From NCBI RefSeq assembly GCF_016903815.1, contig NZ_CP069973.1: a DNA stretch of 64,000 nucleotides. The stretch is one strand, 5' to 3'. The stretch's first letter is position 1, and every line of letters begins with the position of its first letter. Shown here piece by piece: positions 21,001 through 22,958 of this stretch. The stretch comes from Escherichia coli (lineage in GTDB: Bacteria; Pseudomonadota; Gammaproteobacteria; Enterobacterales; Enterobacteriaceae). A program made the position numbers.

Positions 21001-22958
21001 CAGCCAGTAATATAACCGCCAGCAGGGAAAACGATTTAATGGAACTATTCATCATTGTTAACCTTAAATAATGTACGGAAAATTGCGAATAAGAAATTGC
21101 TGTTAAAATTAGAACGAATATCCCACGCCGACACCCGCACCGAAATCAGATTGTGTATCCGCAGAAATACCTGCTTTAAGTACCGTATGCGTTCCGGCAT
21201 TAAAAGATGTTCCTACAGACACCGCAGATTCACCGTTGAAGGTTCCCGCTCCCGCTGACACCATCATCAAGTCACCGGTTTTCACCTGTGGTTGTGAGGC
21301 GATAGCGATGGCTGATGCAGTTCCCGCATTGGCTTCTTTACGATTGTCCTCAACTTCGTTTTTCAGAGAATCGAAATGGTTATTGAGCGTGTTAATTTGT
21401 TGGCTGTTATCTGCGACCCGTTTTTGCGTGTTGGTTAACTGTTGCTGCGTTTGTGCGGAATCTTGTCTCAGACTTTCAATTTGCTCATGTGCCTGGACAG
21501 ACTTCTGCGCCAGACTTTGCATTTGTTTATCGTATTGAGCCCTTTCTTTTTGCTGTTGTGCTGCCACATCGGTTGTCAGTGCATTCATTTTCTGCCCTTG
21601 TTCCGTGGTAGTGCGCTGATTAGCCTCATTTTGAGCCGCCAGCCTGGCATTAATCATCTCCTGATAATGCGCGGTATTTTGCGTATCTCCAGTCGCGGCG
21701 AGCGTTTTTTGTGTGGCTACGATCTGCGCCTGTTGCTCTGTAATTTGCGTTTGCTGGGCATCAGTTACCGCAGACTGTCGGGCGTTGATCATGCTCTGAT
21801 AACGGGCGGTTGTCTGTACATCACCTGTAGCGGCAACGGTTTTTTGTCCTGCGTCAGGATCTGTCTGGACAGGGGGAGTCTGAGTGGTATCAGGTGTTTC
21901 AGAAGGGATGTAGTGATGTTCAGTCAAATAGGTATACGCAGCGGGGCTGTTGTCTGTGCGTTCTAAAAAGCGGGTAATCTTCTGCTCAATCTCCGATTGC
22001 GACATGCCAGAGTTAATGGCTGAAAGCTCTGTTGCCGCCGCTTCAATGGTATCACCAGCTAAAACAACAGGGCTGGATGTTGCTGAAATTATGAGTGCCA
22101 GTAAAGCTACGTTTACAGTTTTCATTCATTTTCTCTTGTTCAAAATAAGTCGCATTAATGTTTCTATAAGAAACAAATAATATTGTTTTAAGAAATAAAC
22201 TGCGTTGCAATTTAATCGAAATCTACGCCGCCATTTGTGTGATGTAAAGCGCATTTTTGTCTGGTGTAAGCGTAAACACCACCAATAAGAAACAAAAAAT
22301 GTTTCTTATATAAATAAAATCGAAAATCATTTTGTGCTCTTTCAATGTAAAAAAGAGTAAAGACTTGTTTTGATAAGCGAAATAAATTCTGTTTCTGGAC
22401 TAAACGTGAAGCGGTTCCTGATGTGTGCTAAAATGCGTTTCTTTGATAAATCTCAATTTTTAAGAGGTTTACGCCAGGCAGGAAAATTTAAATGAATGAA
22501 TTTGAGAAGATTTTTAATGAAATGAATCTGGACCGGGCATTGCTACCGATCCTTTTTCGTTCGAACCGGTCAACAGTGTGGAAATATTTAAGTGGCGATA
22601 GTACGGCTCCTGCCTCAGCTATGTCACTGATTATGCTGTTGCAGTTAATCCAGAAACGAAACCCCGATCTGTTAGCCGAATGGTTAACGCTTTCTGATTT
22701 CACCATTCCGCCAGAAGTTTACCTGGACCAGCCTGATTACTGGAAAGGGTGGGTGTATACGCAACACAAGGTCAATAAAAACGTCCTGGAATATCTAAAA
22801 AAACATTATCCGGATGAAGACCAAAAAAACATGAATAAAGGTAGTGACGAGTAATTTGCCAATGCCAGTTAATATAGCGGAGGCGGCCTACGATTCGGGC
22901 GCAGACTTCCAGGCATGATAAGACGCGCCCGCGCCGCATCAGGCATCAGCGCATAACC

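What the first reader, a model, noticed from the sequence alone, without database searches (positions are those of the whole stretch)
22126..22854. Divergent MqsA-like HTH gene and a six-fold GTTTCT/AGAAAC motif array in the 366-bp control region
The AT-rich intergenic region contains six copies of the hexamer GTTTCT or its complement:
- 22160 and 22169, forming the palindrome GTTTCT-ATA-AGAAAC just upstream of the trimeric autotransporter gene start.
- 22288 and 22301, forming the 9-bp inverted repeat ATAAGAAAC-N7-GTTTCTTAT.
- 22391.
- 22437, immediately downstream of a candidate extended -10 element (TGcTAAAAT, 22426-22434) for the HTH gene.

Only about 0.2-0.5 occurrences would be expected by chance.

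The divergent 120-aa protein has an HTH resembling MqsA/XRE antitoxin-type binders but has no toxin partner. This suggests a dedicated, autoregulating switch for the adhesin operon.
Basis: seen in the sequence. Interest (0 to 1): 0.5.

Follow-up and report, generated by a model that had tools for sequence, protein, structure and literature searches.

The report
Overlooked regulator and operators beside gmrA

Summary
GTTTCT or its complement occurs six times in 22126-22491, against 0.31 expected.

Twelve homologous control regions from other genera show that the real unit is a 15-bp palindrome, GTTTCT-N3-AGAAAC. It recurs at fixed positions around two conserved divergent promoters.

The 120-aa ORF is a real gene. 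Its model (pLDDT 91.5) has an XRE/Cro-type helix-turn-helix domain. It is not MqsA: it has no zinc domain, no toxin partner and no MqsA palindrome, and its Pfam score is below threshold.

The family is tiny, with 23 hits among 1.84 billion representatives. Members are nearly always divergent from a YadA-anchor gene.

Subfamilies with a different recognition helix carry a different palindrome of the same 5-N5-5 geometry (GTAGC-N5-GCTAC; one GAACA-N5-TGTTC site). This is the best evidence that the protein binds these sites.

The island is OI-29 of O157:H7. Primer mapping shows the 338-aa adhesin-like gene is the published "transcriptional activator" gmrA (z0639). The HTH gene is uncharacterised z0640.

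FNR-like and CpxR-like boxes are also conserved. Binding and its sign are untested. This is a new member of a known kind, of moderate interest.

The parts
22492..22854 (+). z0640 (ECs_0549): 120-aa XRE/Cro-type helix-turn-helix protein, the putative local regulator. The HTH domain spans residues ~3-70. An all-helical C-terminal half has no matched fold.
   Evidence: ORF and translation. The z0640 deletion primer arm maps to 22454-22491. AF2 pLDDT 91.5. Fold matches to HigA2, Aca2 and MqsA HTH domains. Conserved homologues.
22126..22491 (.). 366-bp AT-rich (31% GC) divergent control region. Its length is 356-378 bp in the 12 aligned control regions (this window plus 11 other loci).
22160..22174 (.). 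Operator O1: GTTTCTATAAGAAAC, a perfect GTTTC-N5-GAAAC palindrome. It lies 35 bp upstream of the gmrA ATG, at about +46 from the inferred gmrA start site.
   Evidence: Kept in other Escherichia and in the most divergent E. coli allele sampled, with a changed spacer.
22288..22293 (-). Orphan half-site AGAAAC. It is the remnant of a palindrome at region position ~152 that is intact in Leclercia and in several metagenome loci.
22301..22315 (.). Operator O4: GTTTCTTATATAAAT (2 mismatches), about -95 from the inferred gmrA start site.
   Evidence: The aligned site is GTTTCTTTTAGAAAT in E. whittamii.
22391..22405 (.). Operator O5: GTTTCTGGACTAAAC (1 mismatch). Its centre is about -43 from the inferred z0640 start site, and it abuts a weak -35 (GTGAAG, 22406-22411).
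22437..22451 (.). Operator O6: GTTTCTTTGATAAAT (2 mismatches), overlapping the inferred z0640 transcription start. The GTTT at 22437-22440 is invariant in 12 loci.
22426..22434 (+). Extended -10 of the z0640 promoter (TGcTAAAAT). TGnTAnnAT is invariant in 12 loci.
   Evidence: invariant columns 301-309. The start site is inferred, not mapped.
22220..22248 (-). gmrA (TAA) promoter: -35 TTTACA (22248-22243), 17-bp spacer, -10 TAGATT (22225-22220). Both hexamers lie in the most conserved block of the region. The inferred start site is ~22213.
22204..22208 (+). Conserved GTT(T/G)C just downstream of the inferred gmrA start. In Leclercia-type loci it forms GTTTC-N7-GAAAC across the -10/start region. 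It may be a further, differently spaced site.
   Evidence: G79 T80 T81 invariant; N7 has the second-highest count at <=1 mismatch
22443..22456 (.). FNR-like box TTGATAAATCTCAA (9 of 10 match to TTGAT-N4-ATCAA), centred about +8.5 of the z0640 promoter.
   Evidence: <=1 mismatch at the same position in 11 of the 15 non-redundant TAA-linked regions down to 32% protein identity (two of them perfect). Consensus quoted in PMC5352689.
22347..22361 (+). CpxR-like box GTAAAAAAGAGTAAA, a perfect GTAAA-N5-GTAAA. It is followed by a conserved TTGTTTTG.
   Evidence: Consensus quoted in PMC9603713.
21109..22125 (-). z0639 = gmrA (ECs_0548). A 338-aa protein with a signal-peptide-like N-terminus, a coiled-coil region and a C-terminal YadA anchor. 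It is the presumed target gene.
   Evidence: YadA_anchor 45.6 bits, cut-off 22.7. The gmrA primer arm maps to 22126-22164.
20633..21055 (-). z0638 (ECs_0546): 140-aa lipoprotein (lipobox LLAGC), co-oriented downstream of gmrA. Homologues occur in the cassette in other genera.
20433..20636 (-). 67-aa single-pass membrane protein. Its start overlaps the z0638 stop by 4 bp. It is conserved in several of the homologous cassettes.

Best explanation

Proposed mechanism:
- **Binding.** It most likely binds as a dimer to 15-bp palindromes GTTTCT-N3-AGAAAC. The half-site centres are 10 bp apart, one helical turn.
- **Autoregulation.** Sites O5 (about -43) and O6 (about +3) bracket its own extended -10 promoter.
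- **Control of the adhesin-like operon.** Sites lie downstream of the gmrA promoter (O1 at +46, and a site at +24 that is degenerate in E. coli). Others lie upstream (about -73 and -95). The net effect is most likely repression by roadblock or looping.
- **Global inputs.** Conserved FNR-like and CpxR-like boxes probably add oxygen and envelope-stress signals.

What is shown: the motif enrichment, its positional conservation, the fold, the gene linkage, and the co-variation of helix and operator.

What is inferred: binding itself, dimerisation, the transcription start sites and the sign of regulation.
For: 1. **Enrichment.** Six hexamers occur against 0.31 expected.
2. **Preferred spacing.** Over 13 homologous regions, spacer N5 gives 46 sites at <=2 mismatches and 22 at <=1. 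Other spacers give 8-23 and 0-5.
3. **De novo recovery.** A palindrome search independently returns TTTCT-N3-AGAAA as the top motif, in 5 loci. The null maximum was 2-3 loci.
4. **Positional conservation.** Sites sit at the same positions (~35, 57, 152, 176, 266, 312) in Escherichia, Pseudocitrobacter, Leclercia, Symbiopectobacterium and metagenome loci. Spacers and flanks diverge around them.
5. **Local restriction.** In the 64-kb window, two of the three sites with <=1 mismatch lie in this region.
6. **Fold.** The protein has an XRE-type HTH fold.
7. **Linkage.** Every locus examined down to 44% identity with the upstream flank present (17: L001-L006, L008-L010, L012-L017 and the window; L007/L011 flanks cut) is divergent from a TAA-type gene (YadA_anchor hit or homology in most; L010/L015 by position only). 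So are the more distant L019/L020 and L025-L027 (29-32%; L027 truncated). Chromosomal sites differ.
8. **Co-variation.**
   - Helix (S/A)NRS(T/V)(V/I)(W/H)KYL goes with 5-8 GTTTC per region.
   - Helix VQRSTLNKW goes with 0 GTTTC, 5-8 AGCTA, and the palindrome GTAGC-N5-GCTAC of the same geometry, in two unrelated regions.
   - Helix APRNTIFNYLNG goes with a single perfect GAACA-N5-TGTTC, seen in only one of the two loci.
9. **Sign of regulation.** Published data show that deleting z0640 does not copy the gmrA motility defect (PMC5826968). This argues against an essential activator and is compatible with a repressor.
Against: - Start sites are inferred from consensus and conservation only.
- Several window sites are imperfect (1-2 mismatches), and one palindrome has decayed to a half-site.
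- The sites at about -43, -73 and -95 would also suit activation, so the sign is open.
- Co-variation rests on few independent lineages.
- Global regulators conserved across Enterobacterales could also explain conservation within the main clade.
- The published z0640 deletion showed no phenotype in the one assay used, which was motility.
Confidence: 0.55

Rival explanations
1. [not shown]
For: The same region carries conserved boxes that resemble sites of the global regulators FNR and CpxR. So host-factor sites clearly travel with the cassette. GTTTC-N5-GAAAC fits the generic T-N11-A pattern of LysR-type sites (this point rests on my own knowledge).
Against: The motif disappears and is replaced by a different palindrome of the same geometry exactly where the neighbouring HTH protein's recognition helix changes. 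The hosts there are still related enterobacteria. I know of no E. coli regulator with this consensus. Only one other site with <=1 mismatch occurs in the 64-kb window.
Confidence: 0.2
2. [not shown]
For: The best fold and profile matches are antitoxin HTH domains: HigA2 and MqsA. The published z0640 deletion had no phenotype in the one assay used, motility.
Against: No toxin-like ORF is adjacent in any locus. The strict divergent linkage is to TAA genes. Helix and operator co-vary.
Confidence: 0.1
3. The palindromes act at RNA level, as hairpins in the two 5' leaders that affect stability or translation.
For: O1 and O6 lie in the inferred transcribed leaders. O1 folds as a 7-bp hairpin in the minimum-free-energy structure.
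Against: Leader folds are no more stable than shuffles (z -0.66 and +0.50). There is no Rfam match in the region. Half of the sites lie upstream of both promoters. Deviations break pairing rather than compensate.
Confidence: 0.05
4. The array is a chance or compositional by-product of an AT-rich, horizontally acquired spacer. It could also be a relic of local duplication without function.
For: The region is 31% GC. AT-rich hexamers commonly reach 5 or more copies in shuffles.
Against: No shuffle in 5000 reached 6 copies. The corrected P is about 0.002. Conservation is position-specific across genera with 61-82% protein identity. The N5 spacing is strongly preferred.
Confidence: 0.03

Closest known systems
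XRE/Cro-C1 family autoregulators with palindromic operators: restriction-modification C proteins, phage P2 C repressor, Aca1/Aca2
   Different: No curated family profile reaches threshold. The C-terminal ~50 residues match no known fold. The target is a trimeric-autotransporter cassette, not a phage, restriction-modification or anti-CRISPR module. Binding is untested.
MqsA (E. coli antitoxin, PF15731) and HigA2 (V. cholerae antitoxin)
   Different: There is no zinc-ribbon or toxin-binding N-terminal domain (0 Cys). There is no toxin gene and no ACCT-N-AGGT palindrome. The score is below the gathering threshold.
[not shown]
   Same: It is the same island and the same control region. gmrA is the gene this region drives.
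   Different: GmrA is the 338-aa YadA-anchor protein, not the HTH protein. The paper leaves z0640, and the regulation of gmrA, uncharacterised.
Local regulators of enterobacterial adhesin operons (e.g. the PapB family)
   Same: A small HTH protein encoded next to an adhesin locus, with multiple sites in an AT-rich control region.
   Different: It has an unrelated fold family, and discrete 15-bp palindromes rather than AT-tract repeats. This comparison rests on my own knowledge and on the abstract of PMC12388093 only.

Membership tests
XRE / Cro-C1 (lambda-repressor-like) HTH superfamily | Five-helix bundle with the helix-turn-helix at helices 2-3 | tested here: met
   [not shown]
XRE / Cro-C1 (lambda-repressor-like) HTH superfamily | Sequence match to a curated family profile at its gathering threshold | tested here: not met
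   The window protein has only MqsA_antitoxin at 13.5 bits against a cut-off of 30, and no NCBIfam hit. Relatives reach E 2.4e-5 (MqsA_antitoxin), 3.7e-5 (Xre-like-HTH) and 2.5e-4 (HTH_3).
XRE / Cro-C1 (lambda-repressor-like) HTH superfamily | Sequence-specific binding, usually as a dimer, to an interrupted palindrome | not testable with these tools
   Indirect evidence only: a conserved 5-N5-5 palindrome array, and co-variation with the recognition helix.
MqsA antitoxin (PF15731) | N-terminal zinc-binding domain that binds the MqsR toxin | tested here: not met
   The HTH starts at residue 3. The protein has no cysteine.
MqsA antitoxin (PF15731) | Adjacent co-transcribed toxin gene | tested here: not met
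   The neighbours are the divergent TAA gene and REP elements followed by ybbJ. None of the TAA-linked loci examined has an adjacent co-transcribed toxin-like ORF; L009 has a separate Xre/RES pair downstream.
MqsA antitoxin (PF15731) | Operator palindrome ACCT-N(2-4)-AGGT (as quoted in PMC4894380) | tested here: not met
   None occurs in 22126-22491.
MqsA antitoxin (PF15731) | Pfam gathering score | tested here: not met
   13.5 bits against 30.
Trimeric autotransporter adhesin (type Vc) - the neighbouring gene 21109-22125 | C-terminal YadA-like membrane anchor | tested here: met
   PF03895 scores 45.6 bits against a cut-off of 22.7, over residues 279-338. RefSeq names it 'YadA family autotransporter adhesin'.
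Trimeric autotransporter adhesin (type Vc) - the neighbouring gene 21109-22125 | N-terminal Sec signal peptide and coiled-coil stalk | tested here: inconclusive
   By inspection, MKTVNVALLALIISATSSPVVLA/GD looks like a signal peptide. There are weak coiled-coil profile hits over residues 100-270. No dedicated predictor was run.
OI-29 of E. coli O157:H7 (z0638-z0639/gmrA-z0640) | Same genes at the same chromosomal site, between cueR and ybbJ | tested here: met
   The published deletion-primer arms map to 20392-20429, 20595-20632, 22126-22164, 22454-22491 and 23048-23086 with 0-1 mismatch. The Sakai annotation lists ECs_0546, ECs_0548 and ECs_0549.

The most novel reading that the evidence does not exclude

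The switch would be gated by oxygen (FNR-like box over the z0640 leader) and envelope stress (CpxR-like box). It would produce heterogeneous or niche-specific display of the OI-29 trimeric autotransporter.

Probability: 0.15. Interest if true: 0.65.

Novelty: new member of a known kind. Interest (0 to 1): 0.5.

Why it matters
OI-29 is present in 26% of the complete E. coli genomes searched (1413 of 5426). Carriers include O157:H7 here and, by published report, O55:H7, UTI89, RS218, S88 and IAI39.

Published reviews treat its 338-aa protein (GmrA) as a DNA-binding activator of fliA. They leave z0640, and the control of gmrA, unexplained.

This analysis shows that the island carries its own XRE-type regulator gene. 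That gene comes with a conserved, co-varying operator array and probable FNR and Cpx inputs. This gives a concrete, cheaply testable model for how the cassette is switched.

It also raises the question of whether the published assignment of a transcription-factor role to a YadA-anchor protein is right.

More generally, it defines a small regulator family with no Pfam model. The family travels with short trimeric-autotransporter cassettes in Enterobacterales. Its natural specificity variants (GTTTC, GTAGC, GAACA) could serve to study how HTH specificity evolves.

Tried and rejected
- **First AF2 run.** With only close homologues, the model had pLDDT 57 and was unusable. It was replaced by a run on a deeper alignment.
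- **PDB sequence search.** A profile search gave only chance hits, all with E >= 0.29.
- **Rfam.** The region has no match. The only hits are REP-type naRNA4 elements downstream of the gene.
- **RNA folding.** Neither leader is more stable than shuffles.
- **PHROGs.** There were no hits for the three small proteins, so no phage link.
- **CRP site idea.** I considered a CRP site in the conserved TGTGATGTAAAGC block and dropped it. The second half-site is not conserved, and the position relative to the -10 does not fit (by inspection).
- **OmpR, PhoP and RcsB boxes.** These were considered from memory. The geometry, palindromic rather than tandem, does not fit.
- **fliA promoter.** I looked for GTTTC-N5-GAAAC at the K-12 fliA promoter, to link z0640 to the published motility phenotype. 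No site with <=2 mismatches occurs in 5.5 kb.
- **P0028.** This 2772-aa repeat protein hit by the profile search looks like a repeat-driven artefact.
- **Literature by accession.** A search by RefSeq protein accessions returned nothing.
- **afdb50.** The fold library was unavailable.

Full report
**Where this is.** The window is E. coli chromosome and is 100% identical to several human isolates. The finding lies in a four-gene islet inserted between cueR (20022-20429, +) and ybbJ (23039-23497, -). The four genes are:
- a 67-aa membrane protein (20433-20636, -);
- a 140-aa lipoprotein (20633-21055, -);
- a 338-aa protein with a YadA anchor (21109-22125, -);
- the divergent 120-aa ORF (22492-22854, +).

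The 366-bp spacer is 31% GC, against 55% for the window as a whole. It occurs once, always on the chromosome, in 1413 of 5426 complete E. coli genomes.

**The observation.**
- Dinucleotide-preserving shuffles of the spacer give a mean of 0.31 copies. None of 5000 shuffles reached six.
- Allowing for the fact that the motif was chosen after looking, a hexamer with at least two G/C reached six copies in only 4 of 2000 shuffles.
- The two inverted repeats and the TGcTAAAAT element are present as described.

**What the repeat really is.**
- I collected homologous loci from Escherichia sp., E. whittamii, E. ruysiae, Pseudocitrobacter, an unnamed enterobacterium, Leclercia, Symbiopectobacterium and four metagenome contigs. 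The protein is 61-97% identical across them.
- Where the cassette is intact it has the same layout, and the spacer is 356-378 bp in every aligned locus, each with 5-8 GTTTC/GAAAC pentamers.
- A scan of half-site spacing over 13 regions shows a sharp preference for GTTTC-N5-GAAAC. That spacing gives 46 sites at <=2 mismatches and 22 at <=1. Any other spacer from 0 to 12 gives 8-23 and 0-5.
- An unbiased search for perfect palindromes returns the same element in a shifted register, TTTCT-N3-AGAAA, as the top hit. It is present in 5 non-redundant loci, against a null maximum of 2-3.
- The symmetrised consensus from 37 sites is GTTTC-Y-WWW-R-GAAAC. The sixth base was not used in the search, yet it is T in 53 of 74 half-sites.
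- Sites recur at region positions ~35, 57, 152, 176, 266 and 312.
- In the window the sites are 22160-22174 (perfect), 22301-22315 (2 mismatches), 22391-22405 (1 mismatch) and 22437-22451 (2 mismatches). The AGAAAC at 22288 is the surviving half of the ~152 palindrome, which is intact in other genera.
- The most divergent E. coli allele sampled (85% identity) keeps every copy, while the spacers have changed.

**Promoters and other conserved elements.**
- The alignment of 12 spacers has two blocks that fit divergent sigma-70 promoters.
  - On the minus strand: -35 TTTACA (22248-22243), a 17-bp spacer, then -10 TAGATT (22225-22220). The consensus scan also picks this up. T, A and the final T of the -10 are invariant.
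  - On the plus strand: an extended -10, TGnTAnnAT (22426-22434), which is invariant, with only a weak -35.
- Start sites are inferred at about 22213 (minus) and 22441 (plus). Neither is mapped.
- On that basis, the operator at 22391-22405 is centred near -43 of the z0640 promoter. The operator at 22437-22451 lies over its start.
- The perfect operator 22160-22174 lies at about +46 of the gmrA transcript. Upstream sites lie at about -73 and -95.
- Two further conserved elements resemble global-regulator sites.
  - TTGATAAATCTCAA (22443-22456) matches the FNR consensus TTGAT-N4-ATCAA at 9 of 10 positions. The consensus is quoted in PMC5352689. A match with <=1 mismatch sits at the same position in 11 of the 15 non-redundant TAA-linked regions down to 32% protein identity, and two of those are perfect.
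  - GTAAAAAAGAGTAAA (22347-22361) is a perfect CpxR-type GTAAA-N5-GTAAA. The consensus is quoted in PMC9603713. It is also conserved in position.
  - These two are leads, not findings.

**The protein.**
- Pfam gives only a sub-threshold match to the HTH part of MqsA_antitoxin (E 0.081, 13.5 bits, cut-off 30). NCBIfam and PHROGs give nothing.
- The family is very small. A profile search found 23 proteins among 1.84 billion representatives, and a second search found 32.
- Across 20 members, five match MqsA_antitoxin (best E 2.4e-5), four match Xre-like-HTH and three match HTH_3.
- With the deeper alignment, AlphaFold2 gives pLDDT 91.5 and pTM 0.79. The model is all-helical.
- The N-terminal ~70 residues are therefore an XRE/Cro-type HTH domain. 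The C-terminal ~50 residues match nothing.
- It is not MqsA. It has no cysteine and so no zinc domain. It has no toxin gene beside it, and there is no ACCT-N-AGGT palindrome in the spacer.

**Why I think the protein binds the palindromes.**
- *Linkage.* Every homologue down to 44% identity whose upstream flank was recovered sits divergently from a TAA-type gene. Most of these have a YadA_anchor hit or detectable homology; two (L010, L015) are judged by position only. This holds at several different chromosomal sites. Two more distant subfamilies (29-32% identity) do the same. Others further out do not, or lack the TAA.
- *Co-variation.* This is the stronger argument.
  - Regions next to proteins with recognition helix (S/A)NRS(T/V)(V/I)(W/H)KYL have 5-8 GTTTC and 0-1 AGCTA.
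  - Two unrelated regions next to proteins with helix VQRSTLNKW(L/V)NG have no GTTTC and 5-8 AGCTA. These are arranged as GTAGC-N5-GCTAC, which is the same 5-N5-5 geometry with two bases of the half-site changed. Both regions are significant against shuffles.
  - Of two regions next to helix APRNTIFNYLNG, one has a single perfect GAACA-N5-TGTTC; its sister locus does not.
- A host global regulator would not be expected to change specificity in step with the neighbouring gene.
- Neither leader folds better than shuffles (z -0.66 and +0.50). No Rfam family matches the spacer. An RNA explanation is therefore weak.

**What is already published.**
- The islet is O-island 29 of O157:H7, known as S-loop 43 in Sakai (ECs_0546, ECs_0548, ECs_0549). 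ECs0548 was earlier listed as 'Saa-like' (PMC2323221).
- Yang et al. 2018 (PMC5826968) named z0639 'GmrA'. They reported it as a transcriptional activator that binds the fliA promoter.
- In their data, deletions of z0638 and z0640 had no motility phenotype. They state that how gmrA expression is controlled is unknown.
- I mapped their deletion-primer arms onto the window.
  - The gmrA arm is 22126-22164 (minus), which directly abuts the start of the 338-aa YadA-anchor ORF.
  - The z0640 arm is 22454-22491, which directly abuts the 120-aa ORF.
- So the 'adhesin' of the finding is gmrA, and the HTH protein is the uncharacterised z0640.
- A protein with a signal-peptide-like N-terminus and a YadA anchor (45.6 bits) is an unexpected transcription factor. 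I flag this but cannot resolve it here.
- I found no operator-like site at the K-12 fliA promoter.

**Verdict.**
- The best reading is a dedicated XRE-type local regulator with a conserved palindromic operator array controlling itself and the gmrA cassette. Probable FNR and Cpx inputs are layered on top.
- In kind this is ordinary: a small HTH autoregulator with palindromic operators. It is a new, unnamed family with natural specificity variants.
- It sits in a medically relevant island where the literature has assigned the regulatory role to the neighbouring surface protein.
- Binding, start sites and the sign of regulation remain inferred.

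Noticed in passing
window 21109-22125 (-): The 338-aa ORF is the published gmrA (z0639), described as a transcriptional activator that binds the fliA promoter (PMC5826968). By sequence it has a signal-peptide-like N-terminus, a coiled-coil region and a YadA outer-membrane anchor above Pfam threshold. Published function and domain architecture are hard to reconcile.
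   Followed up: partly
window 22443-22456: FNR-like box TTGATAAATCTCAA just downstream of the z0640 -10. A match with <=1 mismatch sits at the same position in 11 of the 15 non-redundant TAA-linked regions down to 32% protein identity (perfect in L010 and L017). It suggests oxygen-dependent repression of the regulator gene.
   Followed up: partly
window 22347-22361 (and conserved TTGTTTTG at 22364-22371): A perfect CpxR-type direct repeat GTAAA-N5-GTAAA, conserved in position in most homologous regions. It lies about -87 from the z0640 start and -141 from the gmrA start.
   Followed up: partly
window 22204-22225: A conserved GTT(T/G)C next to the inferred gmrA start. It pairs with GAAAT/GAAAC inside the -10 at N7-N9 spacing, and is a perfect GTTTC-N7-GAAAC in Leclercia-type loci. 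It may be a second binding mode over the core promoter.
   Followed up: no
window 22912-22989 and 23012-23078: REP/BIME-type elements (Rfam naRNA4, 71.9 bits) fill the gap between z0640 and ybbJ, at the island's right edge.
   Followed up: no
window ~1-20025 (T1SS genes 16691-18853 and 18850-20025): Immediately upstream of cueR lies a giant BapA/SiiE-type adhesin gene with its type I secretion ABC and HlyD components. Two adhesin systems therefore flank cueR.
   Followed up: no
L002-L004 vs window 21109-22125: The passenger (N-terminal) part of the TAA is highly variable between Escherichia species (30-76% identity, with length changes). The spacer, the regulator, the lipoprotein and the 67-aa protein stay 87-97% identical.
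   Followed up: no
window 20433-21055 (-): The 140-aa lipoprotein (lipobox LLAGC) and the 67-aa single-pass membrane protein overlap by 4 bp. Homologues travel with the TAA in other genera. Their position is reminiscent of an export helper such as SadB, but no family match was found.
   Followed up: no
P0005, P0016, P0018 (homologues of 22492-22854): Some genomes carry alleles of the regulator that are frameshifted after about residue 78. These keep the HTH domain but replace the C-terminal half.
   Followed up: no
L028-L030: A distant cassette sits between qmcA and a LysR gene. There the regulator homologue faces only the lipoprotein-size and small-protein genes, with no TAA gene. It still has a 374-bp spacer with GTAGC-N5-GCTAC palindromes.
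   Followed up: no
window 22652-22657 (-): A seventh AGAAAC lies inside the z0640 coding sequence, in the codons for QKRN. It is not part of a palindrome and is probably coincidental.
   Followed up: partly
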